32,000 bases of DNA. Source: Candidatus Saccharimonadota bacterium (GTDB taxonomy: Bacteria; Patescibacteriota; Gracilibacteria; UBA1369; 2-02-FULL-48-14). The stretch spans positions 1,020,001-1,052,000 of the forward strand of contig OZ246396.1 in NCBI GenBank assembly GCA_965230905.1. Reading direction: 5' to 3'. A model generated the notes under the pieces. It was given only the letters and a program-made list of their open reading frames with translations, was not told where the DNA came from and did no database searches. Each line of letters opens with the position of its first letter. Position 1 is the first letter of the stretch. The position numbers and the translations under genes are program-made. This document shows, piece by piece, positions 6,770-32,000 of this stretch.

Positions 6770-6790
6770 AGTTATTATTAATAGGGGGTG

Positions 6791-6820
6791 ATTCTAGCTT
6801 ATTTAAATTGTGAATGTCTA
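6791..6820 (-). promoter_or_regulatory. candidate promoter of the 117-aa ORF (TAGACA-18-TAGAAT)
   Basis: On the minus strand, TAGACA (6815-6820) is followed by an 18-nt spacer and TAGAAT (6791-6796), 21 nt upstream of the ATG at 6769. Confidence 0.4.
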
Positions 6821-6880
6821 GCTCAAGAGAGGCGAACTTAGTGGGAGGAGAAATAGAAACGAGTTACGCCCGGGCGTACT

Positions 6881-7087: not shown

Positions 7088-7253
7088 TATTATAGACCAC
7101 GCGATCAGCCATGCCGCGGCCCACCCGCATAATCTTTACTTCGGTGTGATCACAGTCTTCCTTGTTATTATCAACCTCGACGTAGGCAAGGACTGACACC
7201 ATTAGTCCGGCGCCTGTAAGGTAACGCAGTGCTACAGGTAGATTTTCTAGCAT
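7062..7253 (-). CDS. hypothetical small membrane protein (63 aa)
   Basis: The ATG lies 3 nt after the stop of the cupin gene. There is an N-terminal hydrophobic segment (LRYLTGAGLMVSVLAYV). No homology recognised. Confidence 0.4.
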   Translation of the reverse strand: MLENLPVALRYLTGAGLMVSVLAYVEVDNNKEDCDHTEVKIMRVGRGMADRVVYNNGNPASDG

Positions 7254-7256
7254 AGC

Positions 7257-13059: not shown

Positions 13060-16000
13060 TACGCTTCTAGTTTACGGTTTCGGTAGAAGAGTGCAAGGGC
13101 GGTTAAGCTGGCGAGTACCGCGATGCTTCCCAGTGCAATGGTCCAAGGTGAGGCTCCGGTTTCTCCGCTTGCGAAGGCGGTGTTGGTCACTTCAAAGGAA
13201 ATTTGTGTGGGGGTGCTGGTGGCGCCCGTTTTGAGGTCTTGAGCGTACCAAGTCACCGTGTGATCTCCGAGTTCCAGGTTTTCTACGGGACGAGCGTTTA
13301 GGGTTTGGTCAGAAGCGTCTGCGATCAAGGTTTGGCTGAAAATAGTACTTTTCCATGCAATCACGATCATGTAATCGCTGGCTGCTTTGAGTGAGAGGGT
13401 AGGAAGACGTTCGGTTATTGCGGATTGGTTTTGAAGGCCGAGTCCATCGAACAATGGTTTTTTAACGGTGGACATTGCCGTGAGACTGATGGGGCGTGAA
13501 AGGTCTGTGAGTTCCTCTAAACTATCTCCAGTGGTCAGCACTAAAATGTGTTTTCCCGCCTTCAATTCAGACGTGGTCAACAAGATGTAGCGGCCGTTTT
13601 CATCTGACTTGGTTTCTCCGAGTAAGGTCAAGCTGCCATCGCTGTTCACTTCATGAGCTTGCACGGTAGTTTCTTCAGCGGCGTGTCCCATGAAGAGTTG
13701 CTCTCCTTCTTCAACGATTGCGCCATCATTCATATTCACAATGCTCACTCTGCCAGCGGCTATACTTGATGTGCTTACCTTAGGATTGGTTCCGTAGTGA
13801 AGCACTTCATCTCCATCGGTGAGGCCGTCTGCATCGCTATCATTATCTTGAGGGTCGGTTCCGTTGTAGAATTCAGAAAGGTCGGAAAGGCCGTCTTCAT
13901 CGGAGTCCAAAGTTCCCAAAGGTTCAGTGATTTGTTCTGATTCAATGTAGCTGATCAACTCCTGTGAACTGACGTAAGGTTGATTGTAAACCAAGGGTTC
14001 CTCATCTTCAGCATCGGCGGTTCCGTCATGATCGCTGTCGTAGCTTTCTGGATCCGTTTCTCCAATGAAGAGTTCTTCAGCATCGGTGAGGCCGTCGTCA
14101 TCGGAATCTGCTGAGTTGATGTTTCCTCCGTATAAAATTTCTTCCCAGTCGTAGGCTCCGTCTTTATCGCTGTCGCGAGTTGCTGGAATGGATTTACCAC
14201 CTGCTCGTAGGTCAATCAGAAGCTGGGGAACGCCTTGTGCATTGCTTTCTCCAAAAGCTGCGTTGGTTAAAGCGGCGGTCTCGTAGGTTTCTTCACTAAT
14301 GACAGTGGAGATTAAGGTCTCACGAACCGATACTTCCTGAATGGGGTCGATGAATTGATAAATTCCGCTGTAGAAACTGCTTTCCGTTTCACCTGATTCA
14401 CCTGAGTTGTTTGAGTCATTGCTGTCTTCTTCAGACTCAGTTTCAGAGCCCGTGGAGGTCTCTGATTCGGTAGAGGTTTCAGAGCCCGTGGAGGTCTCTG
14501 AGCCGGACTCTTCACCTGATTCTGCTTCGTCCTCTTCTTCTCCAGCCATGCTTTCTTGTTCTTCATCATCATTTCCAACGGTTTCTTCGCTTGAATTATT
14601 TGAGTTAGAGCTGGTGCTGCCTCCGTTGCTGCCTCCGCTGCTTCCCCCTCCTGAGGTATTGGTGACGGTGGCAATGCTAGCTGTGGAGGTGTTTGCTGCA
14701 TTGTCCACAATAGTAATGGAGATGGAGTTGCTTCCGGGTTGAACCGATACGCTCACCGAGAAATTTCCAAGGCCATCTACATTAGCTCCTGAGTCGGTGC
14801 CGTTGACGTAAACGTTTGCACCCACTTCTGTTCCGGAACCAGTAATGGTTACCGTGGAAGTGGAGGTAGAAGGGTAGCTCAAGGCAGGCGCGGTGGGTGT
14901 TATGGTGTCGCGAGTGATGGTGTGACTTGCTGTGGTGGAAATGTTGCTACTGAAATCTACGGATGCAATGGATAGGTTGTTCTCACCTTCACTCAGGGCA
15001 TAATTCGTCACGGTCCAGGTGGTGAGTGCGTCACTTACTACTTGTTCGACGCCACCGATCCACAGGCTGGTGTTGGCTTCTTTTGTACCGGTGAGCGTAG
15101 CGGTAGTGCTTGAGGTGTAGCTACTGTTGGCAGGGCTTGTCACCGTGGGCACCACGGGCGCGGTGCTGTCTGTAACGGTAGAAAAAGTCGCTGAGCTTGC
15201 CGAGGTACTAAAGGTGGAGTTGGTGGCGGTTACGGAAACCACACTGCTGGCCGAAATAGCCATGTGGTTCTCCCAGGTCCCTCCACTAGTGGCGGTGGTA
15301 TTTGCTACATAGACTCCGTTCACAAAAATCTCAACGGTGGCGTTGGCTGCGCTGGTACCTCCTGCATAAGAGGTAGTGGCTGAACTTATGGTAGGAGTGG
15401 CGATGCTTTCGTTTGCTGGATTGGTACGGCTTATATAGGAGCTGGTACCGTCGGTGCTACACGTGTTTTTTCTAATATGGTTGAAGTCACCGGCTGTGGT
15501 TGTCATGTTTATGCAAGACTTTCCAGTTGTAGCCAGTATTGTGTTGGCAGCACCCGTAGCGGTTCCACCAATTACATTTGAATTGGATGTGGAATCTATA
15601 AGGATTCCATGCTCGGTGTTCAGCCTTTGGTTTAGGCCCTCGGTACCAATCAGGTTGTATACAACCACCATGCTGTCGGCTCCATTTATATAAAGTCCGC
15701 TGCCCCCGTTTGAGGCAATGCGATTTCGTCTACCGCTTACGTTTGCCTCGCCTATGATTCCAGAGTCTGCAACGGTTCTAATCCCATGAGCTCCATTGGC
15801 CAGCGCTGTTGAGTCATCCGCTTGGAGCCCAATGGTGTTGTCGTAGATTTGTGCACCGGTTGCTCCTGTGGCGGCGATATGAATTCCATTGCCGGTGTTT
15901 CCGGATATCAGGTTACCTTGATCGGTGCCTCCAATGATCAGGCCTGTAGCCGTTCCTCCGGTAACCACGAGAATACCATCTCCACCGTTGGCGATGGCAG

Positions 16001-17132
16001 CGGTTCCTAGTGCGTTGGTACCTATTTTATTATATTTAATAATATTAGAGCTCGCGTTGTTTATGGTTCCATCTATTCGAATACCAGACAGTGTGTTTCC
16101 TGAGATGATGTTTATGCTGGAACTGGTGGTACCTCCTATTGTATTGGATCCGCTTGCTAAGAGTATACCGGAGGCGCCGTTCGCAAGTGCAGCCGTTCCG
16201 GCTGAGCTCACCCCAATGTAATTTTTTTCAATCACGATTCCATCTGAGCCATCCACATATATACCGTTTCCGGTGTTACCTGAGATTACGTTTGTAGTAC
16301 CTACGTCAGTTCCACCAATGGTGGTACTGGTTACACCGCTACCGATGTAGATTCCGTTTGAACCGTTTCCAAGGTCGTTGCTTCCGGTGCTCGTTCCTAT
16401 GTAATTTCCTTTTATGATGGCTGCGGAATCTGACAAGAGAATTCCATTCCCTGTGTTGTTCACTATGACGTTCCGTTCTGCCCCGCTGGTACCCCCAATC
16501 ACCACTCCAGTAGAGGTGTTTATTACGCTGATCCCGGTTCCATTTGCGACATCTACTCCAACATAATTATTTATGAGGGTTACGTTGTCTGCACCGTTGA
16601 CGCGAATACCTGAACCGCTGCAATTGTCCCAGTAATTGAGGTCTGGAGTAGCACTTCCTCCAATGGTTGCCCCACTTACACTGGAGCTAAGCACTATCCC
16701 GTTCGTTGCCCCAAGACAGCCGATTCCTTTTACAACGTGACTGGCTCCGCTACTTATACTCAAACAGTGATCCAGCCCGGTGGCTCTTAAGGTCACGTCT
16801 GGATTGGGCGATATGAAGTTATGTGCCGTTGTTCCATCAATGGTGATGGTTTCAGTGATGACCGGAAGGTTGGAGGACAAGGTAATTCCAGTTTGAAAGA
16901 GACCTTCGGTGCCGTCAAAATTAACGGTATCGGCCCCTACGTTGGCATTTGCGTCGGTGATGGCTTGGCGAAGGGAGCCGGCTCCTGAGTCACTTGCATT
17001 GATTACGGTGTAGGTGGCGGCTTGTGCTGAGGGCGCTTGCATCAATACCCCCATGAACAGGGCAACTCCTGCGAGAAACAGGAAGTTGAATAAACCGTTT
17101 TGCGGTTTGATTTGGTTTGACGTTTGTGCCAT
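13059..17132 (-). CDS. giant tail-anchored surface protein: signal peptide, parallel beta-helix repeats, Ig-like domains, acidic Ser/Thr/Glu linker, thrombospondin-type-3-like Ca-binding repeats, C-terminal TM
   Basis: The ORF is open to 17192, but MAQTSNQ (ATG 17132) precedes a signal-like LFNFLFLAGVALFMGVLMQAPSAQA, and a promoter-like element covers 17164-17192. GSLRQAITDAN is followed by about 20 or more turns of G-N-x-G-N-G-I type beta-helix repeats (~15440-17020). There are five DSD-x-DG-x-x-D repeats (~13803-14180). The C-terminus is PWTIALGSIAVLASLTALALFYRNRKLEA. Confidence 0.85.
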   Translation of the reverse strand: MAQTSNQIKPQNGLFNFLFLAGVALFMGVLMQAPSAQAATYTVINASDSGAGSLRQAITDANANVGADTVNFDGTEGLFQTGITLSSNLPVITETITIDGTTAHNFISPNPDVTLRATGLDHCLSISSGASHVVKGIGCLGATNGIVLSSSVSGATIGGSATPDLNYWDNCSGSGIRVNGADNVTLINNYVGVDVANGTGISVINTSTGVVIGGTSGAERNVIVNNTGNGILLSDSAAIIKGNYIGTSTGSNDLGNGSNGIYIGSGVTSTTIGGTDVGTTNVISGNTGNGIYVDGSDGIVIEKNYIGVSSAGTAALANGASGILLASGSNTIGGTTSSSINIISGNTLSGIRIDGTINNASSNIIKYNKIGTNALGTAAIANGGDGILVVTGGTATGLIIGGTDQGNLISGNTGNGIHIAATGATGAQIYDNTIGLQADDSTALANGAHGIRTVADSGIIGEANVSGRRNRIASNGGSGLYINGADSMVVVYNLIGTEGLNQRLNTEHGILIDSTSNSNVIGGTATGAANTILATTGKSCINMTTTAGDFNHIRKNTCSTDGTSSYISRTNPANESIATPTISSATTSYAGGTSAANATVEIFVNGVYVANTTATSGGTWENHMAISASSVVSVTATNSTFSTSASSATFSTVTDSTAPVVPTVTSPANSSYTSSTTATLTGTKEANTSLWIGGVEQVVSDALTTWTVTNYALSEGENNLSIASVDFSSNISTTASHTITRDTITPTAPALSYPSTSTSTVTITGSGTEVGANVYVNGTDSGANVDGLGNFSVSVSVQPGSNSISITIVDNAANTSTASIATVTNTSGGGSSGGSNGGSTSSNSNNSSEETVGNDDEEQESMAGEEEDEAESGEESGSETSTGSETSTESETSTGSETESEEDSNDSNNSGESGETESSFYSGIYQFIDPIQEVSVRETLISTVISEETYETAALTNAAFGESNAQGVPQLLIDLRAGGKSIPATRDSDKDGAYDWEEILYGGNINSADSDDDGLTDAEELFIGETDPESYDSDHDGTADAEDEEPLVYNQPYVSSQELISYIESEQITEPLGTLDSDEDGLSDLSEFYNGTDPQDNDSDADGLTDGDEVLHYGTNPKVSTSSIAAGRVSIVNMNDGAIVEEGEQLFMGHAAEETTVQAHEVNSDGSLTLLGETKSDENGRYILLTTSELKAGKHILVLTTGDSLEELTDLSRPISLTAMSTVKKPLFDGLGLQNQSAITERLPTLSLKAASDYMIVIAWKSTIFSQTLIADASDQTLNARPVENLELGDHTVTWYAQDLKTGATSTPTQISFEVTNTAFASGETGASPWTIALGSIAVLASLTALALFYRNRKLEA
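14441..14501 (-). repeat. in-frame tandem repeat (25-nt exact core at 36-nt period) in the acidic linker of the giant surface protein
   Basis: TTTCAGAGCCCGTGGAGGTCTCTGA occurs at 14441-14465 and again at 14477-14501. It encodes the SETSTGSETSTESETSTGSE low-complexity run. Confidence 0.8.
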
Positions 17133-17163
17133 TGACGTGGTTTTTATTTTTATAAATCTTAAT

Positions 17164-17192
17164 ATTGTAGCACAAAAATGCCTGTTAAACAA
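17164..17192 (-). promoter_or_regulatory. candidate promoter of the giant surface-protein gene (TTGTTT-17-TGcTACAAT)
   Basis: On the minus strand, TTGTTT (17187-17192) is followed by a 17-nt spacer ending in TGC and then TACAAT (17164-17169), an extended -10. It sits in the gap after the glmS stop. Confidence 0.45.
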
Positions 17193-19035: not shown

Positions 19036-20475
19036 CTATCGAATCATTTCTCGCAAAGTGGCTCGTTGCTCTAGACTGGTTGGAATAAAACGAGCCGCTA
19101 CTACCACTTGTCCTTTACCTTCGCCATTTACTGCATCTAGTTCTCTAGCCAAGGTGTTTACTTTATCCCCGTAGTTTCCGTTGAACCCACCAATGGCAAT
19201 GATATGAGGAACCACTGACCAAGTTTTATTTCTGCTTCCAGCTACACGATCGGTTAAGGAAATGTCTCCTCCCAGGTTTTCTAGGCCAGCTTTGGCTATG
19301 GCTTGTTCAACGGCGGCTGAGCTACCCCTTTGCGTGCTTCGAGCCACGCGTAGCAACATGTTGCCTTCTACTTTTAGTGGAGCAGCATCCATCACTTCAT
19401 GTTGGAAAACACGAGATCCATTGAAGCTACCTTCATTGATCCAGGTTGATAAAACTTGATCCACATCTTTTCCAGTATTGATTTCAATTCTTTTCCCAGA
19501 TCCTCCAATGTGTGGTGTAGTCACTAGTCCTGGATGGGCATCTGGTGGAAGCGCGAATCTTCCTTTCACTTCCATTTCTTTTGCATGAGTGTCTACGAAG
19601 GCAGAGTGAAGAACGCCTTCTTTGAGTAATACGTCTAGTTCCGCTAAAGAAGGTGCAAGTGAACCTCTGGCGATATTTAAAAGAATGCCGGTAGGGATGC
19701 CATTTACTGTGTTCTTTTCACCCCATTGTCTCAATCGGTCGACACTTATTAAGCCCTTGTTTGGAGTGCCCATCGCGTCCATTTCATCCACATGTAAACT
19801 GAGGACATTAGCCCACGCTAAGAGTTTATCCAGGGTTGGAAACCATCCGACCTGGAGCCCTTCAGCATGTTGTTGAATTCGTCTATCGTACGTTCGTTCT
19901 AGCTCGAATCGGTGATTGTGAGCGCCTATACCCTCCACATGTGGAGAAAGTCTTTCAGCTACTCCCTGGCCAATGTCACCATAGCCTACAATACCTACGC
20001 GCATTTCATCCATTGGCAAAATCGTTTGAGAAGTTTCTCCTTTTGACCACTCACCATTACGTCCGTAGTTGTTTCCAATAGCCAAGCCACTGGCGGCGGC
20101 ACGCATGCACGCTTCTACCAGATCAATTACTTGCTGTCGGTTGGTGTCTACTTTAAGTACTTCGGTACCCAACTCTTGTGCAGCTGCTACGTCGGCATGT
20201 GGCCCCTTGCATGCACCTTGAACCACACTCAGTCCAGATTCTTCCAAAACTTGTCGATTGAAGGTGGATGAAGTTCGAGTTACAGCAACGTGTGCGTCTA
20301 CTGCTAATAAAGCGGCTACTAAGGTGTCAGGATCTTTCGAATTTTTAATCCTATGGGGTTGTAGTCCACGTGCTTCAAGCATTTTATCTAGGCCACCGCT
20401 TTTATCTACATCATCTACAATAGCGATGTTAACGGGGTCCGGTTGTAGGTGCAGTCCGTTTTCTAGAATTGGCAT
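19036..20475 (-). CDS. D-isomer-specific 2-hydroxyacid dehydrogenase family protein, SerA (3-phosphoglycerate dehydrogenase)-like with a C-terminal regulatory-type domain
   Basis: 479 aa. Rossmann GxGxxG (VGIVGYGDIGQG). Family catalytic motifs NIARGSL (Arg), a Glu in VDTHAKEM, and TTPHIGGSG (His). WINEGSFNGSRVF resembles the SerA segment that precedes the ACT domain. The Asp that usually follows the second beta-strand of the NAD fold is not obvious (IGAHNHRF). Confidence 0.7.
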   Translation of the reverse strand: MPILENGLHLQPDPVNIAIVDDVDKSGGLDKMLEARGLQPHRIKNSKDPDTLVAALLAVDAHVAVTRTSSTFNRQVLEESGLSVVQGACKGPHADVAAAQELGTEVLKVDTNRQQVIDLVEACMRAAASGLAIGNNYGRNGEWSKGETSQTILPMDEMRVGIVGYGDIGQGVAERLSPHVEGIGAHNHRFELERTYDRRIQQHAEGLQVGWFPTLDKLLAWANVLSLHVDEMDAMGTPNKGLISVDRLRQWGEKNTVNGIPTGILLNIARGSLAPSLAELDVLLKEGVLHSAFVDTHAKEMEVKGRFALPPDAHPGLVTTPHIGGSGKRIEINTGKDVDQVLSTWINEGSFNGSRVFQHEVMDAAPLKVEGNMLLRVARSTQRGSSAAVEQAIAKAGLENLGGDISLTDRVAGSRNKTWSVVPHIIAIGGFNGNYGDKVNTLARELDAVNGEGKGQVVVAARFIPTSLEQRATLREMIR

Positions 20476-23869: not shown

Positions 23870-25150
23870 TTATTTCTTCTTTTTAATCGAACGGGTTTTG
23901 CTGCGTTTGGCAGGTTTAACCGGTTCATTTTTCAATAAAGCCCGCCGATTATAGCGATAGATGATATAGAACGCAAGTAAAACGAGGAGCAAGCTGAAGC
24001 TGATAGCGCCAGCCAGGAATTTGTAATCAAAGACGCGAACCTTCACCTCGAGGGTATCCGATTGGCCTTTGTCGTCGTAAACGGTGAGGATGGCGGTTTG
24101 TAAACCGGTTGCGTCGAAGCTGCGGGTAACCTGGGCTCCTTCTACGGTTTCATCTCCAAACTGCCACACAAATTTTACGATTCCCGTGTCATCTTGCGAT
24201 GCTGAGGCGTCGAAGGTGATCTCGTCACCCAAACCTGCAATGATCACGTCTTGGTCCATTTCCGCAACGGGCGAGGGGTTGGAGGGGTCGGTATCATTTA
24301 CATTGGCGAGGCCGTCTCCATCAATGTCGTCGTCGCTGTTGTCTCCGGTCCCGTCGTTGTCCACGTCAAACCATTCTTTAGGATCGCTTGGGAAGGGATC
24401 TTCACCATCGTTCTTGGCGTCGCCGTCAGTGTCGGAGTTTTTTGGGTCGGTTTCTTGATTGTCTTCGTCGTCGTTGAGCACCCCATCTCCATCAATATCG
24501 TCGTCGATTTCATCGGGGCTGCCGTCGGAATCTTGATCTTTGGTGTAACGCGAATCTTCGGGCATTTGGTCATCGGCGTCCAGGGTGCCGTCGTTGTCGT
24601 CGTCCGTATCGGCATTGTTTCCTTGGCCGTCACCGTCCGTGTCCTTGGATTCCAAAGAACTGATGGGGAAGGTGTCTTCTTCGTTGTTCACTCCGTCTCC
24701 GTCTTTATCGGGATCGGTGGAGTTGGGAATTCCGTCGTGATCGGTGTCCTGCTGCACATTCACCGTCTTTTGCACCACATTGTTGCCAGGGTTGTCGGAA
24801 GTTCCGTCCCAAGGAATCACGGTAACGGTAATCGTGTATTCGCCGTAGCTGGGTGGCGTCCAATCTACAAACACGTCATCACTTTTACCGGCGAGCGCGG
24901 AAATGGGCTGATCGGTGCCGATGTTCCCATCCTTACTGGTGAAACGAACGGTTCCAAGTAGGTCGGAGGGGCTGTTGTTTTGAACGGAAGCCCAGATTCG
25001 GGTGGGGCTGCCTTCAAAAAAGTAGGAGTTGCTGAACCAAACATTGGCATCTGAAACAGAAAGATCGCCACTCACGGCAAAGGCCGGGGTGGCGAGGCTG
25101 AGTAGAGAAACCAACAGCAAACTAGCAAAGGCATGGATGGATTTTTTCAT
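23870..25150 (-). CDS. tail-anchored surface protein: signal peptide, CARDB-like domain, thrombospondin-type-3-like Asp-rich repeats, PKD domain, C-terminal TM plus basic tail
   Basis: 426 aa. Signal peptide MKKSIHAFASLLLVSLLSLATPAFA. A CARDB-like beta domain (DLSVSDANVWFS...YTITVTVIPWD). About 10 DxDxDG-type repeats (~24272-24757). A PKD-like segment (FDASASQDDTGIVKFVWQFGDE...LTVYDDKGQSD). TM segment FLAGAISFSLLLVLLAFYIIY followed by RYNRR...KRSKTRSIKKKK. Confidence 0.8.
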   Translation of the reverse strand: MKKSIHAFASLLLVSLLSLATPAFAVSGDLSVSDANVWFSNSYFFEGSPTRIWASVQNNSPSDLLGTVRFTSKDGNIGTDQPISALAGKSDDVFVDWTPPSYGEYTITVTVIPWDGTSDNPGNNVVQKTVNVQQDTDHDGIPNSTDPDKDGDGVNNEEDTFPISSLESKDTDGDGQGNNADTDDDNDGTLDADDQMPEDSRYTKDQDSDGSPDEIDDDIDGDGVLNDDEDNQETDPKNSDTDGDAKNDGEDPFPSDPKEWFDVDNDGTGDNSDDDIDGDGLANVNDTDPSNPSPVAEMDQDVIIAGLGDEITFDASASQDDTGIVKFVWQFGDETVEGAQVTRSFDATGLQTAILTVYDDKGQSDTLEVKVRVFDYKFLAGAISFSLLLVLLAFYIIYRYNRRALLKNEPVKPAKRSKTRSIKKKK

Positions 25151-25159: not shown

Positions 25160-27793
25160 TTAAACGAGAGTTGCCTGTTCTTCGCTTTCCGTTTCCTCGG
25201 CTCCTGTGGATTCGGGAACCTCGCTTTGAGCGATGAAGGACATGGAAGCGACCTTATCATCCGTCTTAACGCGCATAAGGTAAACCCCTTGTGTCGCGCG
25301 GCCTCGGCTTGGAACGCTCTTCAGTTGAGTGCGGATCATCACTCCTTTCTTAGAAACGATGATGATGTCGCCTTCGGTTTCAGGTTCCAGTACTTTGGCT
25401 CCCACGAGTTTTCCGGTTTTGCTGGTGAGATTTGCGGTCTTCACTCCACTTCCTCCACGGGTCTGGAATCGGTATTCCTTAATAGGCGTTCGTTTTCCAA
25501 GTCCGTTTTCCATCACCACAAAGAGGTCGGCTTCAGCGGATTTAACGTTGTCCATTTCCACTACCTCATCTCCACTTCGCAGTTTGATTCCACGCACTCC
25601 CATAGAAGCGCGGCCCATTGGGCGTACGTCTTCTTGGTCGAATTGGATGCATTTCCCTTCATGAGTCACGATCATAATATGGTCGCCTGGGCTGCTTTGT
25701 TTCACCCAAGAGAGCGAATCGTCGTCACGGAGTTTAATGGCAATGAGTCCGGATTTTCGCACAGCTTTGAATTCTGCTACGGCTGTCTTTTTAACGGTTC
25801 CTTTTTTGGTCGCCATGAAGAGGAAGTCTCCTCCGAATTCTTCGTTGGTCACCACGAGCATCGCGGTAACGTACTCTTCTTTAGTGAGCTGAATGAGGTT
25901 GATGAGAGGGATTCCCTTGGCCTGACGGCTGGCCTGAGGCAGTTCGTACACAGGGAGTTGGAACACACGGCCCGTGTTCGTGAAGAACAGGAGTTTATCG
26001 TGGTTTTTGGCGTAGCGGAGGATAGCTATCTCATCTTCTTCCTTGGTGCTCATGGCCACCTTGCCCTGACCTCCACGTTCTTGACGGCGGAAAGTAGAAG
26101 GCGGAACCCGCTTAACGTAATTTTCCTTGGTGAGGGTCACCACCATTTCTTCGTTCGGGATGGTGTCTTTTACAGAGAAATCGCCGAGGGCATGAGGCAC
26201 GATTTCGGTGCGGCGTGCGTCGCCGTATTGTGCTTTGATTTCGTTGAATTCCTTCATCATGATTTTAGCCACTTTCTTGGTGTCAGCCAAAATGCCTTCG
26301 AGTTCGGCGATGAGCTTCATCTTTTCCGCGAGTTCGTCTTCGATCTTGCTGCGTTCGAGTCCAGCCAGGGTTTGCAGACGCATTTCCAGAATGGCCTGAG
26401 CCTGGAGTTCGCTGAGTTTGAACTTCTTCATCAAAGCCGCGTGCGCCTCCTCTTTAGTCTCGCTCTTACGGATGGTGTCGATCACGGCATCGATGTTGTC
26501 GAGCGCAATCTTAAGTCCTTCCAAAATGTGAGCGCGCGCCTTGGCGATTTTGAGTTCGTAAACCGTGCGGCGAGTGATCACTTCCTTGCGATGCTTAATG
26601 AAGTATTCAAGCACCTCTTTAAGGTTGAGCAGGCGAGGTTGGATTCCGTCCACGAGCGCAATCATGTTCATGTTGAAGTTCGACTGCATGGTCGTGTACT
26701 TGTAGAGCTGATTGAGGATTTTGCTTGGGTAGGAATCCTTCTTAAGTTCGATCACGATGCGCATTCCTTCTCGGTTGGATTCGTCGCGGAGATCGGAAAT
26801 ACCGACGATTTTTTTGTCGGTCACGAGTTCGGCGATTTTTTCTACGAGCGTGGCCTTGTTGATTTGATAAGGAATCTCGGTGACGATGATACGGTGGCGT
26901 CCGTTCTTTTCTTCTTCAATTTCTGCCTTAGCGCGAACGGTGAGTCCTCCGCGTCCGGTCACGTACATTTCTTTAATAGCAGCTTTCCCGTAAGCGGTTG
27001 CGCCGGTGGGAAAGTCGGGTCCCTTGATGTGCTCCATCAGTCCGTCGATATCGATTTCAGGATTGTCGGCCAGGTCAATGAGCGCGTCCATCACTTCCGT
27101 TAGGTTGTGAGGAGGAATGTTGGTGGCCATACCCACGGCAATACCCATGGTTCCATTGAGGAGCAATTGGGGAATTCGAGTGGGGAGTACGCGGGGTTCT
27201 TCGTGACGTCCGTCGTAGTTGGCAACAAAATCCACGGTTTCTTTATCGATGTCGGCCATCATTTCATCCGAAATCTTTTCCATTTTTGCTTCGGTATAAC
27301 GCATGGCGGCGGCGTTGTCTCCGTCGATGGATCCGAAGTTCCCCTGCCCACGAATGAGTGGGTAGCGGAGTGAAAAGTCCTGAGCCATACGCACCATAGA
27401 GTCGTATACGGCGCTGTCTCCGTGAGGATGGTATTTAGCCAACACTTCTCCCACCACGGCGGCTGATTTTCGGAAACCGGCGCTGGAGCGAAGTCCAATC
27501 TCTTGCATGGCGAACAAAATACGTCGGTGAACCGGTTTCATACCGTCGCGAACGTCGGGCAGAGCACGGGAAACGATCACGCTCATGGCGTAATCCAAAT
27601 AACTTTCTTCCATTTCATCCACCACATTTCGGTTCGTGATTTTTCCGGCTGCAAAAAGTTCTGTAGGAGCTTCGGGTTCCGCAGCAAGGTGTGCGGCGGT
27701 CTCTTTGGCGTCCTCCTCACTTTCTATTTCCTCGTTGCCTTCGGGTTGTTCATCCTCGGGGTTTAAGTTGTCCTCAATTTTCTTTTTTGGCAT
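25160..27793 (-). CDS. gyrA: DNA gyrase subunit A
   Basis: 877 aa. [39 protein letters not shown] (active-site Tyr), the GyrA-box-like QGNFGS region, C-terminal beta-pinwheel repeats and an acidic tail. Confidence 0.95.
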
Positions 27794-27856
27794 AGGTGTT
27801 TTTAAATGTGCGCGGGAAGTTTACCCCACCGCAGCAAAATACAAAATTCAGATTGG

Positions 27857-27884
27857 TTGACTGACGCTGGATTTATTTTATAAT
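27857..27884 (+). promoter_or_regulatory. near-consensus sigma70-type promoter (TTGACT-16-TATAAT) for the 226-aa ORF / VirB4-like pair
   Basis: TTGACT at 27857-27862, a 16-nt spacer, and TATAAT at 27879-27884, 32 nt upstream of the ATG at 27917. It lies in the 123-nt divergent gap with gyrA. Confidence 0.5.
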
Positions 27885-27916
27885 GAGGCCTATAGTGCTA
27901 CTCACTAACTTACTTT

Positions 27917-28597
27917 ATGCACGAACAAAGAACTGAAACTGACTTCAATCGAATTGAAGCGATGGTGAAGGCACAGTACGAACCTGCAAAAGAACTCATA
28001 GATCGTACGCGCCTGTCTAAAGGGATCACGGTCCCATCTCTTCAAGAAACTATAGATATTTTGGGTGAAGAGGCCAGCGATGAACAAATTGCCGAGATTT
28101 TAAAAATGCAAAAAGCAGCGCTTATACTTCAGCCAAAAAAGCCTTTTACTGACTATGTTTCGGCAATTGATGGCAATCGAAAGGCAAGGCACTATCCCAC
28201 TTACGTTCCCTCTTTTCTTAAGAATAGGTTCGCTGCCATGCCTTCCAGTAATAGTGTTTCCTTGGGTTTTGTGGAAGGTCTTCCTGAGCTTGCCGGTGAC
28301 CCTGCTTTAATGGGACGAGAACTAGAAGATCAAGAAATGGATGTGAAACGTAGCCTGGCTATAGGTGTGAACATCGTAAATCCTCGTGCTTATTCTTTGC
28401 TCCAAATGGCTGGAATGCAGAGTGATAATTTAGTGGATCAACAAAACTGGTCTGTTGTAGTGGAAGATGATTCTAAAAGATCTTACTTGCCCAAGGCTGG
28501 TTGGGACCATGTTAGAGTGCTTTTCGCTGAGTTCTCTGAAGGTCGTGAGCTTCCCCTTGTTCGTTGGCGGAAAGCGGTGATGAAGGAGAGGGATTAA
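27917..28597 (+). CDS. hypothetical protein (226 aa ORFan upstream of the VirB4-like ATPase)
   Basis: ATG-started ORF with no TM, signal peptide or recognisable motif. It uses ATA/AGA/AGG/TTA/CTT codons unlike the core genes. It is co-oriented with the ATPase gene, which starts 73 nt downstream. Confidence 0.55.
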   Translation: MHEQRTETDFNRIEAMVKAQYEPAKELIDRTRLSKGITVPSLQETIDILGEEASDEQIAEILKMQKAALILQPKKPFTDYVSAIDGNRKARHYPTYVPSFLKNRFAAMPSSNSVSLGFVEGLPELAGDPALMGRELEDQEMDVKRSLAIGVNIVNPRAYSLLQMAGMQSDNLVDQQNWSVVVEDDSKRSYLPKAGWDHVRVLFAEFSEGRELPLVRWRKAVMKERD

Positions 28598-28670
28598 AGG
28601 TGCCCGTTCTGTCTCTAGTAAATCTGGTCATTTTGTGATAAGATGATAAGATTAAAAAGTAGCTCCACGC

Positions 28671-30932
28671 ATGGCTGACAATCCAACGCCTCCACAAACC
28701 GCTTCACTAAGCCCCGCAACCCCTGCGGTTGCTCCTGCTGCGCCACCTTCGATGACGTTGCCACCTTCGATGACGTTGCCAGCGGCGGTTACGGATGCTA
28801 ATGCGGCAACGGTGGCGGCTCAACAAGAAGCTCAGGCAAAATCCACCGTTTCGGCGGACAAAAAACAAGCTGCAAGTGCGGCTGCTGCCAAGGTGAATAG
28901 CGATGCGCAAAAAAACCTGCTCGAAAAGAAACAACTGCTGGAAGCGGAAAAGCTTTTTCAGGAAGGAATTGCTTCCATTCGCGACCTCATTGCACCGTCT
29001 TCGTTTGAAGCGGGCTACGACCACATTAAAATCGATGGGCTCTACTGCCAAACTTTCTTTGTTTACACCTACCCTCGTTACATCGACACCAACTGGCTCA
29101 GCCCGGTGGTGAACTACGATGTGACCATGGATATTTCCCAGTACATCTACCCGATTTCGTCCGAGGACATCATGAAGGTTTTGAAGACCAAGGTGGCTCA
29201 GCTCCAGTCTTCTATTCGCATCGCGGCTGACAAGGGAAATGTGCGTGACCCTGCGCTGGAAACCGCTTTGGAAGATGCCGAATCGCTGCGTACGGAACTC
29301 CAGCGTGGACAGGAAAAATTCTTCCAATACGGACTCTATTTCACGGTCTATTCGCCCAATGAAGATGAACTGCGCAAATCCACCAAAGAACTGCAAAGTT
29401 TGCTGGCCGGAAAACTCGTGCTTTCCAAGCGCGCCGATCTGCAAATGGAACGGGGATTCACTTCCACGATTCCGCTGTGTTTGGATGATATTGCGGTGCA
29501 ACGAAACATGAACACTTCGCCGCTTTCGACCACGTTCCCCTTCATTTCTTCGGAACTCACGTCGAACGACGGAATTTTGTACGGACTCAACCGTCACAAC
29601 GAAGGGCTGATTATTTTTGACCGTTTCTCCTTGGAAAATGCCAACTCAACGGTGTTTGCTAAATCCGGAGCCGGAAAATCCTACGCAGTAAAATTGGAGA
29701 TTTTGCGCTCGCTGATGTTTGGAACCGATGTGATTGTGATCGACCCCGAGAATGAATACAAAGCGCTTTGTGACACCGTTGGAGGAACCTATTTGAGCGT
29801 GTCACTCAACTCGGACAGACGTATCAATCCCTTTGATTTACCCACGCCACTCGAAGGCGAAGAGCTCAAGCCGGGAGACTTGCTGCGCAGCTCTGTGATC
29901 AACCTGACGGGACTCATGCGCCTCATGCTGGGAACTATTACTCCTCAGGAAGAGGGGATTTTGGACAAGGCTTTGATCGACACGTATGCAACCAAGGGTA
30001 TCACCATGGACAGCATCGATCCTTCCAAGTTCACGGTGCCCACCATGACGGACTTTTACAGTGTGCTTTCGTCCATGGACGGAGCTGCCGATATGTCGCA
30101 GCGCATTGCCAAGTACGTGACGGGGACTTACGCCGGGGTATTCAACAAAGAAACCAATGTGACGCTCGACACCGGGCTCATGATTTTCTCGGTGCGAGAT
30201 TTGGAAGACGAGCTGCGGCCCGTGGCCATGTACATTATTTTGAACTACATCTGGAATCGCGTGCGCTCCACGCTTAAGAAACGAATTCTGGTGATTGATG
30301 AAGCCTGGACATTGATGCAGCACGAAGATTCTGCGAAATTCTTATTTGGACTGGTGAAACGTGCCCGAAAATACTTTTTGGGAGTGACGACCATTACGCA
30401 GGACGTGGAAGACTTTATTAATAGCCCGATGGGGAAACCAATTGTGACCAACTCCTCGATGCAGTTGCTTTTGAAGCAATCGCCGTCGGCGGTGGAACCG
30501 CTGGCCAAGGTGTTCAACCTCACGGAGGGAGAAAAATATATGCTGCTCAATTCCGGCGTGGGACAAGGACTCTTTTTTGCCGGTCTCAAGCACGTGGCCA
30601 TTCAAATCATTGCTTCCTTTAGTGAAGACCGAATCGTGACCACGAACCCTCAAGAACTCTTGAACCAAAGCAACGCGACGGCTCAGTTTGAAACTGAGGA
30701 AGCTTTAAAGAAAGAAGCCGAGACGCTGGCAGCTCCAGCTGTGACGCCCGCTCCAGCGGCGCCCGTTGCGGCCACTCCCGAAGAAGCTAAAATGGAGGCG
30801 GAATTCACCGAAAACGTAGCGGCGGTTTTGGACCAGCCCATTGAAGCACCTGCTTCGGTGGTGGCCACGGAAGCGACGGTTTTGGCACCTTCAACCCAAG
30901 ATATCCCGGTGGTCTTTGAGGAGAAGAAGTAA
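28671..30932 (+). CDS. virB4: VirB4/TrbE/CagE-family type IV secretion-like ATPase with low-complexity Ala/Pro-rich N- and C-terminal extensions
   Basis: 753 aa. The VirB4 N-domain pattern (IRDLIAPSSFE..DHIKIDGLYCQTFFVYTYPRYIDTNWLSPV) starts only at about residue 95. Walker A is FAKSGAGKSYAVK, followed by VIVIDPENEY and RINPFDL. Walker B is RILVIDEAWTLM, followed by TTITQDVEDF. Confidence 0.8.
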   Translation: MADNPTPPQTASLSPATPAVAPAAPPSMTLPPSMTLPAAVTDANAATVAAQQEAQAKSTVSADKKQAASAAAAKVNSDAQKNLLEKKQLLEAEKLFQEGIASIRDLIAPSSFEAGYDHIKIDGLYCQTFFVYTYPRYIDTNWLSPVVNYDVTMDISQYIYPISSEDIMKVLKTKVAQLQSSIRIAADKGNVRDPALETALEDAESLRTELQRGQEKFFQYGLYFTVYSPNEDELRKSTKELQSLLAGKLVLSKRADLQMERGFTSTIPLCLDDIAVQRNMNTSPLSTTFPFISSELTSNDGILYGLNRHNEGLIIFDRFSLENANSTVFAKSGAGKSYAVKLEILRSLMFGTDVIVIDPENEYKALCDTVGGTYLSVSLNSDRRINPFDLPTPLEGEELKPGDLLRSSVINLTGLMRLMLGTITPQEEGILDKALIDTYATKGITMDSIDPSKFTVPTMTDFYSVLSSMDGAADMSQRIAKYVTGTYAGVFNKETNVTLDTGLMIFSVRDLEDELRPVAMYIILNYIWNRVRSTLKKRILVIDEAWTLMQHEDSAKFLFGLVKRARKYFLGVTTITQDVEDFINSPMGKPIVTNSSMQLLLKQSPSAVEPLAKVFNLTEGEKYMLLNSGVGQGLFFAGLKHVAIQIIASFSEDRIVTTNPQELLNQSNATAQFETEEALKKEAETLAAPAVTPAPAAPVAATPEEAKMEAEFTENVAAVLDQPIEAPASVVATEATVLAPSTQDIPVVFEEKK
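28743..28778 (+). repeat. perfect 2 x 18-bp in-frame tandem repeat (PPSMTL x2) in the N-terminal extension of the VirB4-like gene
   Basis: CCACCTTCGATGACGTTG occurs at 28743-28760 and is repeated exactly at 28761-28778. Confidence 0.9.
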
Positions 30933-30935
30933 TTT

Positions 30936-32000
30936 CTAGCGCTTCACCTCGTGCAGCCAAGCTTTGTAACGGCCTTTTTGGTGTTTGCCTTGCATAACCA
31001 GACCTAAACGTTCTTGGACGAGCCGTGTCACGGGTCCGATGCCGCCTTCTGAAACGTCCATTTCAAATCGGTCTTTGCGATCAGTGATACTGCCAACGGG
31101 GGCTAAGGTGACACCGGTTCCGCAGGCAAAGGCTTCCTGCATCAATCGTAATTCTGAAACGGGGATGTCCTTATCGTCCCTTACGCCTTTTAATTTGCCT
31201 TCAGCAGCTAGTTCTTTCCCAACTGCTAAAATGGAGTCTCGGGTAACGCCGTCCAAAATTTCCGGGCTCAAAGGAGGAGTCACCAGCCATTTGTCTTTTG
31301 TTACGAAGAAAGAATTGGAGGCGCGTTGCTCGCGGACCCATTTATTTTCATTGTCTATGAACAGAGAATCGTCGAAGCCGCGGTCCTTTACCTCGGCCGT
31401 GATGCGCAAAACCTGAGCATAGTTTCCACCTGCTTTCGTATCGCCCACGCCGCCTTTTGCCGCTCGATGAAAATCGCGATCCACCCACAATTTCAATGGC
31501 TCTTTTGCAAAAATGGGACCTACGGGAGAAGCCACGCAGGTGAACAGGAAACGGGGATTTCTCTCAACGCCCAGTAGATTTTGGGCAGCCCTGAGCCCCG
31601 GAGCTAAATAGACTTGAGCGGTGCCCGGATCGGGGATGAAATCCCAGTTTGCACGTACCAGCTCCTCATCAATCTTTATCAATTCTTTCGGAGTCATGGT
31701 GGGCATCATCATTCGGTCTGCATTTCTCCAAAATCGATTGGCATGTACATCCGGGCGAAACATCACCACGCGTCCGTCATCCAGTTTGTAGACCTTGTTT
31801 CCGCCAAAAATGGTTTGGCCATAGCGGTCCGCCAGAGGGTCGAGTTCCATGGTCCCCACAGGGATGATTTGAGGCTTGGTCCACGCACCTTCTTCGTGTG
31901 CGGCAACGGCCATATTTTTAAGAGGTGTGTATACAAAGGGAAGTTGGCCATGGCGCGCCTTTTCTTGAACTTCGGTCGAGTCCCCCGGCTTGCCGGGAAA
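30936..32000 (-). CDS. ilvE: branched-chain amino acid aminotransferase (class IV PLP fold), 5' end off the window
   Basis: The ORF track starts at ATG 31913, but the frame stays open to the window edge (...FPGKPGDSTEVQEKARHGQLPFVYTPLKNMAVAAHEEGAW). That upstream sequence resembles the conserved BCAT N-terminal region. Further motifs: GQTIFGGNKVYK, LYLAPGL, ACGTGVTLAPVGSI. The stop lies 3 nt from the convergent virB4-like stop. Confidence 0.85.
   Translation of the reverse strand, partial: FPGKPGDSTEVQEKARHGQLPFVYTPLKNMAVAAHEEGAWTKPQIIPVGTMELDPLADRYGQTIFGGNKVYKLDDGRVVMFRPDVHANRFWRNADRMMMPTMTPKELIKIDEELVRANWDFIPDPGTAQVYLAPGLRAAQNLLGVERNPRFLFTCVASPVGPIFAKEPLKLWVDRDFHRAAKGGVGDTKAGGNYAQVLRITAEVKDRGFDDSLFIDNENKWVREQRASNSFFVTKDKWLVTPPLSPEILDGVTRDSILAVGKELAAEGKLKGVRDDKDIPVSELRLMQEAFACGTGVTLAPVGSITDRKDRFEMDVSEGGIGPVTRLVQERLGLVMQGKHQKGRYKAWLHEVKR

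What the first reader, a model, noticed from the sequence alone, without database searches (positions are those of the whole stretch)
27857..30932. Orphan VirB4-family ATPase with disordered termini, paired only with an ORFan under a near-consensus promoter
The 753-aa protein has the VirB4/TrbE N-domain and the Walker A/B ATPase core typical of conjugative T4SS energisers from monoderm-type systems (IDPENEY, NPFDL, ITQDVEDF). The window shows no VirB6/TrbL-like polytopic protein, VirD4 coupling protein, relaxase, pilin, lytic transglycosylase or integrase. Downstream is a convergent ilvE only 3 nt away. Upstream is a 226-aa soluble ORFan with atypical codon usage and the best promoter match in the window (TTGACT-16-TATAAT). 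The ATPase core is flanked by ~95-aa N-terminal and ~90-aa C-terminal Ala/Pro/Thr/Glu-rich low-complexity extensions that are not part of the family core. The pair may be a remnant of a mobile element, or a minimal VirB4-based machine repurposed for DNA uptake or host interaction, with the ORFan as an unrecognised partner.
Basis: partly seen in the sequence, partly recalled or inferred. Interest (0 to 1): 0.65.

Follow-up and report, generated by a model that had tools for sequence, protein, structure and literature searches.

The report
Core Patescibacteria VirB4 ATPase, unlinked neighbour
The 753-aa gene is the chromosomal VirB4 secretion ATPase that nearly all ultra-small "CPR" bacteria carry, as constrained in sequence as gyrA; the small gene in front of it is a recently acquired, unrelated neighbour, so most of the finding is already explained by published work.

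Summary

- **VirB4 identity.** The ATPase belongs to the Patescibacteria-specific, chromosomal, relaxase-less VirB4 clade described in 2025 (PMC12102498). Core identity is 56-96% across CPR classes but at most 37% to any plasmid VirB4.
- **Not a remnant.** Core dN/dS is 0.018, against 0.022 for gyrA, and housekeeping synteny is conserved.
- **"Orphan" status is lineage-typical.** In other CPR classes prgI and trsD lie directly upstream (44/47 loci). In Peribacteria-like genomes they do not (5/33), as published for class Gracilibacteria.
- **The 226-aa gene is not a partner.** It encodes a well-folded protein (pLDDT 93.7) from a small, fast-evolving family of unknown function. The family is absent from 80/80 species-representative virB4 loci, and three of the four closest relatives looked up sit in unrelated contexts. 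It is unrelated to TrsD. The gene occupies a variable slot, and virB4 has its own conserved upstream region.

One modest point was not mentioned in the one paper checked. Where virB4 is uncoupled from trsD/prgI, the protein is about 160 aa longer through low-complexity tails. In the window's closest relatives the C-tail ends in a conserved VQ[ED][IV]PVxF[ED]EK tip.

The parts
27857..27884 (+). Sigma-70-like promoter match TTGACT-16-TATAAT, 33 nt upstream of the 226-aa ORF
   Evidence: It matches 11 of 12 positions and is the best match in 27000-32000; the sequence was read. This is a consensus match only, and function is not shown.
27917..28597 (+). 226-aa soluble protein of a small, fast-evolving CPR family of unknown function; a compositionally foreign occupant of a variable slot, not a T4SS component
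   Evidence: No Pfam, NCBIfam, PADLOC or PHROGs hit. The exhaustive search finds 25 distant relatives. The AF2 model has pLDDT 93.7 and pTM 0.91, and no structural neighbour reaches E<=1e-3. GC3 is 0.379. Family members are absent from 80/80 virB4 loci.
28613..28670 (+). Conserved non-coding region directly upstream of virB4, with two overlapping extended -10-like elements (TGaTAAGAT at 28636-28644 and 28644-28652; TGaTAAAAT in relatives)
   Evidence: The alignment of the window, L011, L001, L003 and L004 is nearly invariant over this block although the upstream genes differ. I infer that virB4 has its own promoter or leader; this was not tested.
28671..30932 (+). virB4: VirB4-family T4SS ATPase of the Patescibacteria clade (753 aa)
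   Evidence: NCBIfam CD1110 scores 360 bits, above the 325 cut-off. PDB 4AG5 matches at 5.9e-44. Core identity is 56-96% to CPR genomes of many classes and at most 37% to plasmid VirB4s. Core dN/dS is 0.018-0.042.
28671..28940 (+). N-terminal low-complexity tail (aa 1-90; Ala/Pro/Thr/Ser-rich), with a perfect 18-nt tandem duplication at 28742-28777 (PPSMTL x2)
   Evidence: Composition is and the tandem repeat. No family profile covers it. dN/dS of 0.13-0.32 indicates it is translated but relaxed. An N-tail is present in 97/98 close homologues.
28941..30665 (+). Conserved VirB4 core (aa 91-665): partial N-domain plus RecA-like ATPase domain; Walker A GAGKS at 29667-29681, Walker B ILVIDEAW at 30285-30308
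   Evidence: The core matches the CD1110 profile only from position 176 of 752, so the extreme N-terminal (TrsD-equivalent) part is missing.
30666..30929 (+). C-terminal low-complexity tail (aa 666-753; Ala/Glu/Pro/Thr/Val-rich) with two conserved islands: EFTENVAAVLDQPIEAP (30801-30851) and the terminal tip QDIPVVFEEKK (30897-30929)
   Evidence: See the alignment. The tip motif [IVL]P[IVL]x[FY] lies in the last 20 aa of 61/200 VirB4s, against 0.2% of shuffled tails. The NVAxVLD island occurs in 38/98.
30936..32000 (-). Convergent class IV (IlvE-like) aminotransferase running past the window edge (438 aa in the source genome); a lineage-specific insertion, not part of the system
   Evidence: Pfam Aminotran_4 hit. 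The gene is absent at this position in L001, L003 and L011.

Best explanation
The 753-aa gene is the vertically inherited, chromosomal VirB4 ATPase of the Patescibacteria (CPR) type IV secretion system, here in a Candidatus Peribacteria / Peregrinibacteria-like genome.

**How it most likely works (inferred).** As in other VirB4s, it most likely forms a hexameric motor at the cytoplasmic face of a monoderm-type T4SS. That system would be built from TrsD-like, PrgI/VirB3-like, polytopic VirB6-like and pilin-like proteins. ATP hydrolysis would drive assembly of the apparatus or pilus and macromolecule transfer at the epibiont-host interface. This is not conjugation.

**Why it looks orphaned.** In this lineage the ancestral prgI-trsD-virB4 operon has been broken up. 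virB4 therefore stands alone between gyrA and gyrB, with its own conserved upstream region. It has gained long low-complexity N- and C-terminal tails, and the C-tail carries a conserved terminal peptide that I infer to be a docking motif.

**The 226-aa gene.** It is not part of the machine. It is a compositionally foreign member of a small, rapidly diverging family of soluble proteins. It sits in a variable slot that holds unrelated genes in sister genomes.
For: **Shown**
- VirB4 membership and catalytic motifs.
- Nearest relatives are all CPR. Core identity is 96-63% to Peribacteria and 56-61% to Saccharibacteria, Doudnabacteria, Berkelbacteria, CPR2 and others. The best plasmid VirB4 reaches 37%.
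- Purifying selection on the core equals that on gyrA (dN/dS 0.018 against 0.022).
- The synteny glmS-M24-ruvA-tgt-L31-PKD-gyrA-[variable]-virB4-sprT-S41-742aa-gyrB is conserved in relatives.
- prgI (PF12666, above cut-off) and trsD-like genes (NF041427; they match the N-terminal part of full-length VirB4 profiles) lie directly upstream of virB4 in 44/47 loci of other classes. They do so in only 5/33 Peribacteria-like loci. None occurs in the window plus 9 kb.
- The 58-nt virB4 upstream block is conserved irrespective of the upstream gene.
- VirB4 has a median length of 616 aa with adjacent trsD/prgI and 775 aa without.
- 226-aa gene: 0/80 co-occurrence with virB4. Relatives lie in greA-fur, yraN-dnaB and rlmH contexts. 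hhalign probability is 0.2% against both the TrsD-like family and VirB4. Against its only syntenic counterpart pN is 0.40 and pS 0.77, while the flanking genes have pS 0.47-0.48. GC3 is 0.379.

**From the literature**
- VirB4 is present in 2,417 of 3,035 Patescibacteria genomes, in a monophyletic clade within MPF_FATA. Relaxases are mostly absent. In class Gracilibacteria TrsD and VirB3 are not near virB4 and VirB6 is undetectable (PMC12102498).
- T4SS genes are essential for epibiotic growth of S. epibionticum (PMC10633639; PMC12857230).
Against: - The rest of the 1.3-Mb genome could not be scanned. The presence of TrsD, PrgI, VirB6-like or pilin genes elsewhere is inferred from the published class-level survey, not shown for this organism.
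- Assigning the organism to GTDB class Gracilibacteria rests on my own knowledge that Peregrinibacteria/Peribacteria fall there. The paper does not use those names.
- No terminator-like site lies between the 226-aa gene and virB4. Read-through co-transcription from the strong promoter is therefore possible, and a lineage-specific functional link cannot be strictly excluded.
- The function of any Patescibacteria T4SS is unknown experimentally.
- The link between tails and operon break-up is essentially one clade, so it amounts to a single evolutionary event.
Confidence: 0.85

Rival explanations
1. The pair is a minimal two-gene module. The 226-aa protein would be a lineage-specific partner of VirB4 (adaptor, regulator or substrate/effector), co-transcribed with it from the strong promoter and functionally replacing the missing TrsD.
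For: The gene has the same position, strand and size as trsD in other CPR classes (~233 aa at -1). It has a near-consensus promoter, and no terminator-like site lies before virB4. The arrangement recurs in one related contig, L011. The protein folds confidently.
Against: The family is absent from 80/80 species-representative virB4 loci. P0122, P0124 and P0125 lie in unrelated housekeeping contexts. Sister genomes with 92-96% identical VirB4 cores carry unrelated genes in the slot. There is no profile similarity to TrsD, PrgI or VirB4, and no VirB4 structure appears among the listed top Foldseek PDB matches. virB4 keeps its own conserved upstream region. The gene has foreign GC3 and saturated divergence from its only syntenic counterpart.
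Confidence: 0.07
2. The VirB4 is a decaying or domesticated remnant of an integrated conjugative element, left behind after the rest of the T4SS, coupling protein and relaxase were lost.
For: No other T4SS, relaxase or integrase gene lies in 41 kb. Its closest non-CPR relatives are conjugative-element VirB4s of Firmicutes and Actinobacteria. The neighbouring 226-aa gene looks horizontally acquired.
Against: Core dN/dS is 0.018-0.042, equal to gyrA. The Walker A and B motifs are intact. GC3 is host-typical at 0.598. The chromosomal position is the same in several species. No flanking repeats bound an element. The clade is conserved phylum-wide at 56% identity or more. An ancient origin from a monoderm conjugative system is likely (PMC12102498), but the gene is not a remnant today.
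Confidence: 0.03
3. VirB4 in this lineage works with a machine other than a T4SS, for example the type IV pilus or competence apparatus. The disordered tails and terminal peptide would dock it to new partners, giving a genuinely re-wired system rather than a dispersed classical one.
For: trsD and prgI are lost from the locus, and VirB6 is undetectable in the class (PMC12102498). The extra ~160 aa of tails correlates with the uncoupling. The tip motif is conserved. A prepilin peptidase lies in the window. The review PMC12857230 notes VirB4/T4CP systems that operate with T4P or T7SS.
Against: There is no direct evidence. The published survey finds TrsD and VirB3 homologues elsewhere in genomes of the class. 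The VirB4 core, including the N-domain surfaces, is nearly invariant relative to classes with full operons, which argues for the same partners.
Confidence: 0.05

Closest known systems
Patescibacteria-clade VirB4 / T4SS (Quinonero-Coronel et al. 2025, PMC12102498; Wang et al. 2023, PMC10633639)
   Same: It is a chromosomal VirB4 with no relaxase nearby. It derives from monoderm MPF_FATA-type systems and is extremely conserved across CPR (56-96% core identity). The protein lacks the extreme N-terminal portion, which TrsD supplies in trans. In the Gracilibacteria-class lineage the other components are not adjacent.
   Different: Here virB4 lies between gyrA and gyrB rather than next to dnaA/dnaN or in a prgI-trsD-virB4 operon. 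It carries N- and C-terminal low-complexity tails of about 90 aa each, with a conserved terminal peptide, which the paper does not mention.
CD1110-family VirB4 of Firmicutes conjugative elements (NCBIfam NF045971; structure 4AG5 of Thermoanaerobacter pseudethanolicus VirB4)
   Same: Same domain order and catalytic motifs. The hit is above the curated cut-off. 4AG5 matches aa 296-652 at 5.9e-44.
   Different: Identity is only 27-37%. The first 175 profile positions are missing. There is no conjugative-element context: no relaxase, T4CP, VirB6, VirB1 or integrase.
TrsD/TraD-TrsE arrangement of pGO1/pSK41-type staphylococcal plasmids (NCBIfam NF041427 TrsD)
   Same: A gene of about 230 aa lies directly upstream of a short VirB4 on the same strand. 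This arrangement is found in 44/47 CPR loci of other classes.
   Different: The window's 226-aa protein is not TrsD. It has no hit to NF041427 or to VirB4 profiles at E<=1. hhalign probability against the CPR TrsD-like family is 0.2%. Its predicted secondary-structure order differs.
SSB-type architecture: a disordered linker ending in an acidic-hydrophobic tip (E. coli SSB ...DDDIPF). Recalled from memory only, as a lead.
   Same: The C-tail is a low-complexity Ala/Pro/Glu/Val-rich linker of ~90-200 aa. It ends in Q[ED][IV]PVxF[ED]..., within 0-6 residues of the C-terminus in 55 of the 61 motif-bearing VirB4s.
   Different: The motif is IPVxF rather than IPF and is usually followed by EEKK. 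No binding partner is known and nothing was tested.

Membership tests
VirB4 / TraC / TrbE T4SS ATPase family | Hit to a curated VirB4 family model above its threshold | tested here: met
   NCBIfam NF045971 conju_CD1110 scores 360.1 bits against a 325 cut-off. Pfam P-loop_TraG scores 94.8 bits against 25.8, and TraC_F_IV 29.7 against 28.1.
VirB4 / TraC / TrbE T4SS ATPase family | Intact Walker A (GxxGxGKS/T) and Walker B (hhhhDE) motifs in a RecA-like C-terminal domain | tested here: met
   GAGKS lies at aa 333-337 and ILVIDEAW at 539-546. Both are invariant in the alignment. The region aligns to the VirB4 C-terminal domain structure 4AG5.
VirB4 / TraC / TrbE T4SS ATPase family | VirB4-type N-terminal domain preceding the ATPase domain; closer to VirB4 than to HerA/FtsK/VirD4 | tested here: met
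   TraC_F_IV and CagE_TrbE_VirB hit aa 130-271. TIGR00929 VirB4_CagE hits at 3.5e-37, against DUF87/HerA at 2.4e-7 and CedB at 1.6e-13. Full-length TrwK matches aa 192-626.
VirB4 / TraC / TrbE T4SS ATPase family | Encoded with other T4SS components (VirB3/PrgI, VirB6, VirB8, VirB1, T4CP) | tested here: not met
   None is present in the 32-kb window or the following 9 kb. This is a contextual feature, not a protein-family criterion. The rest of the genome could not be scanned.
Patescibacteria-specific VirB4 clade (PMC12102498) | Closest relatives are exclusively Patescibacteria VirB4s, clearly separated from VirB4s of mobile elements | tested here: met
   Core identity is 56-96% to 80 species-representative CPR loci of at least 8 candidate phyla or classes. 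The top 120 database hits are 66-86% identical and carry Peregrinibacteria, Gracilibacteria or Patescibacteria names. The best of at least 5,000 plasmid hits is 36.8%. No formal tree was built.
Patescibacteria-specific VirB4 clade (PMC12102498) | Chromosomal location with no associated relaxase | tested here: met
   Housekeeping neighbours include gyrA, tgt, ruvA, glmS and gyrB. No relaxase or integrase family occurs in 41 kb.
Patescibacteria-specific VirB4 clade (PMC12102498) | TrsD-like and PrgI/VirB3-like genes present in the genome (adjacent in most classes, dispersed in class Gracilibacteria) | not testable with these tools
   They are adjacent in 44/47 loci of other classes and 5/33 Peribacteria-like loci, and absent from the window plus 9 kb.
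TrsD/TraD family (candidate identity of the 226-aa protein) | Sequence or profile similarity to TrsD (NF041427) or to the N-terminal portion of full-length VirB4 | tested here: not met
   No NCBIfam or Pfam hit at E<=1. hhalign probability is 0.2% against the CPR TrsD-like family and against the VirB4 alignment. Genuine CPR TrsD-like proteins do hit NF041427 and VirB4 profiles.
TrsD/TraD family (candidate identity of the 226-aa protein) | Conserved co-occurrence directly upstream of virB4 | tested here: not met
   0/80 species-representative virB4 loci contain a family member. Only L011 shares the arrangement. P0122, P0124 and P0125 are elsewhere.

The most novel reading that the evidence does not exclude
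In the Peribacteria/Peregrinibacteria lineage virB4 has been uncoupled from trsD and prgI. There VirB4 may have acquired a new way of finding its partners: long disordered N- and C-terminal tethers, with the C-tail ending in a conserved acidic-hydrophobic peptide (VQ[ED][IV]PVxF[ED]EK). That peptide would act as a short linear docking motif, formally like the SSB C-terminal tip, recruiting a still unidentified protein to the T4SS motor. A weaker corollary concerns the variable, strongly promoted gene slot immediately upstream of virB4. It may hold lineage-specific cargo or specificity factors of the system, the 226-aa protein being one of them.
Probability: 0.15. Interest if true: 0.55.

Novelty: new member of a known kind. 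Interest (0 to 1): 0.27.

Why it matters
The Patescibacteria T4SS is one of the few machines shown to be essential for the epibiotic lifestyle of CPR bacteria, and its substrate and direction of transport are still unknown. This locus adds no new system. It does give a clean example of the dispersed arrangement in a near-complete Peribacteria-like genome.

It shows that virB4 here is as constrained as gyrA, so it is a core gene and not mobile-element debris. It removes a tempting false lead, the "partner" ORF. It also points to two testable details:
- the lineage-specific disordered tails with a conserved terminal peptide, which could be used as bait to find partners of the motor;
- a conserved virB4 upstream element that may carry its regulation.

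Tried and rejected
1. **226-aa protein as TrsD-like or split VirB4 N-domain.** Rejected by curated models and by hhalign against the VirB4 family and the CPR TrsD-like family (0.2% probability each). No VirB4 structure appears among the listed top Foldseek PDB matches.
2. **226-aa protein as a defence or phage protein.** PADLOC and PHROGs gave nothing.
3. **Function from fold.** The model is confident, but Foldseek against PDB and BFVD gave no match at E<=1e-3. The only hits were weak C-type-lectin-like / Bd2740 C-domain resemblances over the C-terminal half (E ~0.1).
4. **Slot genes in L001, L003 and L004 as diverged family members.** Rejected. There was no HMM hit at E<=10 with filters off and no Pfam hit.
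5. **The ~742-aa and 683-aa neighbours as a conserved unrecognised T4SS component (VirB6-like).** Rejected. The 742-aa protein has a single N-terminal TM segment only, and the 683-aa protein has none detected. The two proteins are unrelated and have no family hits.
6. **Alternative genetic code to explain the 438-aa versus 325-aa aminotransferase.** Rejected. There is no in-frame stop; the gene simply runs off the window. TGA is used as a stop in 4 genes.
7. **AF2 model of full-length VirB4 to test disorder of the tails.** It failed at pLDDT 39, probably because the alignment of 15 close homologues was too shallow, so it was not used.
8. **Element-bounding repeats around the pair.** None were found.
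9. **Source names for the closest VirB4 clusters.** None were available.
10. **Supplementary tables of PMC12102498.** They do not contain GCA_000989635, so the T4SS components of that related assembly (L005) could not be read off.

Full report
**1. The observation**

The quoted motifs are present, along with Walker A GAGKS (aa 333-337) and Walker B ILVIDEAW (aa 539-546).

The 753-aa protein passes the curated threshold of NCBIfam NF045971, the CD1110-family VirB4-like conjugal transfer ATPase (360 bits against 325, aa 91-643). It also hits Pfam P-loop_TraG, AAA_10, TraC_F_IV and CagE_TrbE_VirB. Its best solved-structure relatives are the VirB4 C-terminal domain of Thermoanaerobacter pseudethanolicus (4AG5, 5.9e-44) and TrwK.

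Family profiles and plasmid homologues cover only aa ~91-666. The flanks are Ala/Pro/Thr/Ser-rich (aa 1-90) and Ala/Glu/Thr/Pro/Val-rich (aa 666-753).

The remaining points also hold:
- TTGACT-16-TATAAT lies at 27857-27884, an 11/12 match.
- The aminotransferase stop lies 3 nt after the virB4 stop.
- The 226-aa gene is compositionally atypical. GC3 is 0.379 against ~0.59, and its codon distance is 0.259 against 0.145 +/- 0.017 expected.
- No T4SS, relaxase or integrase family is found in the rest of the window, which is chromosomal housekeeping. It holds SecDF, prepilin peptidase, ruvC, pyruvate kinase, glmS, ruvA, tgt and gyrA.

**2. What the VirB4 is**

Thousands of homologues exist. The top 120 are 66-86% identical and, where named, come from Peregrinibacteria, Gracilibacteria or Patescibacteria MAGs. 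In species-representative genomes the nearest loci are "Candidatus Peribacteria" (63-96% core identity). Saccharibacteria, Doudnabacteria, Berkelbacteria, CPR2, Komeili-, Falkow- and Kerfeldbacteria are still 56-61% identical. The best of at least 5,000 plasmid VirB4s is 36.8%.

This is the pattern published in 2025 (PMC12102498):
- VirB4 occurs in 2,417 of 3,035 Patescibacteria genomes.
- It forms a monophyletic clade nested in MPF_FATA.
- It is chromosomal, with relaxases mostly absent.
- In class Gracilibacteria specifically, TrsD and VirB3 homologues are not located near virB4 and VirB6 homologues are undetectable.

T4SS genes are essential for epibiotic growth of the Saccharibacterium S. 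epibionticum, and their role is still unknown (PMC10633639; PMC12857230; PMC11665869).

**3. Not a remnant**

I compared the window with the close relative L011.

| Region | dN/dS | Note |
|---|---|---|
| virB4 core | 0.018 | 98% aa identity at dS 0.75 |
| gyrA | 0.022 | same genome pair |
| virB4 tails | 0.08-0.32 | relaxed but under constraint |

Against L001 and L003 the core gives 0.033 and 0.042.

The source genome is a 1.3-Mb ENA contig (L006). It and its relatives L001, L003 and L011 share this gene order:

glmS - M24 peptidase - ruvA - tgt - L31 - PKD protein - gyrA - [small variable gene] - virB4 - SprT-like - S41 peptidase - ~742-aa single-TM protein - gyrB

No element-bounding repeats flank the pair, and virB4 has host-typical GC3 of 0.598.

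**4. The "orphan" state in context**

I clustered the neighbours of virB4 in the 80 species-representative loci.

| Group | prgI/trsD-like genes adjacent | Typical neighbours |
|---|---|---|
| Other CPR classes | 44 of 47 loci | ~150-aa two-TM gene at -2 and ~233-aa gene at -1, same strand; a polytopic ~800-1000-aa protein further upstream; a beta-propeller protein downstream |
| Peribacteria-like | 5 of 33 loci | gyrA (14 loci) and S41 peptidase (17 loci) instead |

Curated models identify the two upstream genes:
- The -2 gene is PrgI (PF12666, above cut-off).
- The -1 gene is TrsD/TraD-like (NF041427, E down to 1e-9). It also matches positions ~11-102 of the CD1110 profile and ~100-260 of the VirB4_plasma profile.

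This explains why the window's VirB4 matches the CD1110 profile only from position 176. The extreme N-terminal part is a separate protein in CPR.

HMMs of these families find nothing in the window, L006, L001 or L003. The window therefore shows the lineage-typical dispersed arrangement, not a uniquely minimal machine. Whether this genome encodes the other parts elsewhere could not be tested.

**5. The 226-aa gene**

It is a real gene. The AF2 model from a 17-member alignment has pLDDT 93.7 and pTM 0.91. It is not a strict ORFan: the exhaustive search finds 25 relatives, five of them full-length at 36-43% identity. A profile search adds more, all unnamed.

No function can be assigned:
- There is no Pfam, NCBIfam, PADLOC or PHROGs hit.
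- No structural neighbour reaches E<=1e-3. There are only weak lectin-like hits on the C-terminal half.

It is not a VirB4 partner by the comparative test:
- P0122 lies between greA and fur-znuABC.
- P0124 lies between yraN and dnaB.
- P0125 lies next to a SPOUT methyltransferase.
- Only P0123 (L011) repeats the gyrA-X-virB4 arrangement.
- 0 of 80 species-representative virB4 loci carry a family member within 8 kb.
- L001, L003 and L004 have unrelated small genes in the slot.

Even the one syntenic counterpart differs at pN 0.40 and pS 0.77, while both flanking genes have pS 0.47-0.48. The slot therefore turns over by replacement or extreme divergence.

The tempting idea that it is a diverged TrsD, given the same size, strand and position, fails. 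hhalign gives 0.2% probability against both the CPR TrsD-like family and VirB4.

virB4 also keeps a 58-nt upstream block (28613-28670) that is nearly invariant across relatives with different upstream genes. The block contains extended -10-like TGnTAAAAT/TAAGAT elements. I infer that virB4 has its own promoter or leader. Read-through from the strong upstream promoter is not excluded, because there is no terminator-like site between the genes.

**6. A point not mentioned in the 2025 survey**

| virB4 context | n | Median length | Range |
|---|---|---|---|
| trsD/prgI adjacent | 48 | 616 aa | 591-698 |
| trsD/prgI not adjacent | 26 | 775 aa | 687-896 |

Mann-Whitney p is 1.8e-12, but this is essentially one clade, so it is one evolutionary event. 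The extra length lies in low-complexity tails:
- An N-tail is present in 97/98 close homologues and a C-tail in 69/98.
- A perfect 18-nt tandem duplication (PPSMTL x2) shows how the N-tail grows.
- The C-tail carries two conserved islands, EFTENVAAVLDQPIEAP and a terminal VQ[ED][IV]PVxF[ED]EK.
- The terminal motif is present in 61/200 VirB4s, and in 55 of those 61 it lies within 0-6 residues of the C-terminus. It occurs in 0.2% of shuffled tails.

The 2025 paper does not mention tails.

A disordered linker ending in an acidic-hydrophobic tip recalls the SSB C-terminus. That comparison comes from memory only and is a lead, not a test. Disorder itself could not be tested, because the full-length AF2 model failed at pLDDT 39.

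**7. Mechanism**

*Shown:*
- an intact, strongly constrained VirB4 ATPase;
- chromosomal, syntenic and relaxase-less context;
- separation from trsD and prgI;
- its own conserved upstream region.

*Inferred from family knowledge and the cited literature:*
- a hexameric motor at the cytoplasmic face of a monoderm-type T4SS assembled from dispersed genes;
- that motor powering pilus or channel assembly and macromolecule transfer between epibiont and host.

*Speculative:* the tails act as tethers and the tip as a docking peptide.

**8. Verdict**

The VirB4 identity and "repurposed machine" agree with published work. "Mobile-element remnant" and "ORFan partner" are rejected.

Novelty is low. This is a new member of a described clade, in the arrangement already reported for its class. 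The tails and tip motif are a modest addition to that.

Noticed in passing
window 28613-28670: A 58-nt non-coding block directly upstream of virB4 is nearly invariant across relatives whose upstream genes differ. It contains a tandem GATAAGAT repeat that forms extended -10-like elements. It may be virB4's own promoter or a regulatory site.
   Followed up: partly
window 30801-30851 and 30897-30929 (VirB4 aa 711-727 and 743-753): Two conserved peptide islands lie inside the otherwise variable C-terminal tail. The terminal VQ[ED][IV]PVxF[ED]EK occurs in 61/200 homologues against 0.2% of shuffled tails. Its shape recalls the SSB C-terminal tip; that comparison is from memory only.
   Followed up: partly
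window 28742-28777: A perfect 18-nt tandem duplication encodes PPSMTL-PPSMTL in the VirB4 N-tail. It points to slippage-driven growth of the low-complexity region.
   Followed up: yes
window 6208-7256: About 1 kb has no ORF matching any family, and no Rfam match even at E<=1. It lies between a membrane transporter gene and a cupin gene. It could be a decayed gene or an undescribed RNA.
   Followed up: partly
window 19036-20475 (-): The 2-hydroxyacid dehydrogenase gene has GC3 0.358, as atypical as the 226-aa gene. It is absent at this position in relatives L001 and L003, so it is probably another recent acquisition.
   Followed up: partly
window 30936-32000 (-), continuing in L006 to 13582: The class IV aminotransferase is 438 aa, with an N-terminal extension of ~113 aa beyond the Pfam domain. 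It is inserted between virB4 and the SprT-like gene relative to L001, L003 and L011.
   Followed up: partly
window 2066-5128 (-): The SecD-SecF fusion protein (1020 aa) has a PPIC-type peptidyl-prolyl isomerase domain (aa 228-345) embedded between the SecD N-terminal P1 segment and the P1 head.
   Followed up: no
L006 14110-15777 (-) and equivalents in L001, L003, L004, L011: An S41 (C-terminal processing) peptidase with PDZ and a faint SLH domain lies within a few genes of virB4 in 17 of 33 Peribacteria-like loci. In S. epibionticum, a peptidase downstream of virB4 is reported to be essential (PMC12102498).
   Followed up: partly
L016 8001-8975 and 9193-10068: Two tandem paralogues of the 226-aa family lie in GCA_021733565.1, at the edge of a block of unannotated genes. 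Two further family members lie on the same contig.
   Followed up: partly
L020 and L095: Contigs labelled Oceanicoccus sp. and Bdellovibrionales carry CPR-type virB4 (85% and 56% core identity). L095 also has the prgI-trsD operon. These are probably mis-binned MAG contigs.
   Followed up: no
window 8740-9492 (-), 13059-17192 (-), 23870-25150 (-): The window holds a prepilin peptidase, so the genome has a type IV pilus system. It also holds two large TSP3/PKD-repeat surface proteins that are plausible adhesins of an epibiont.
   Followed up: no
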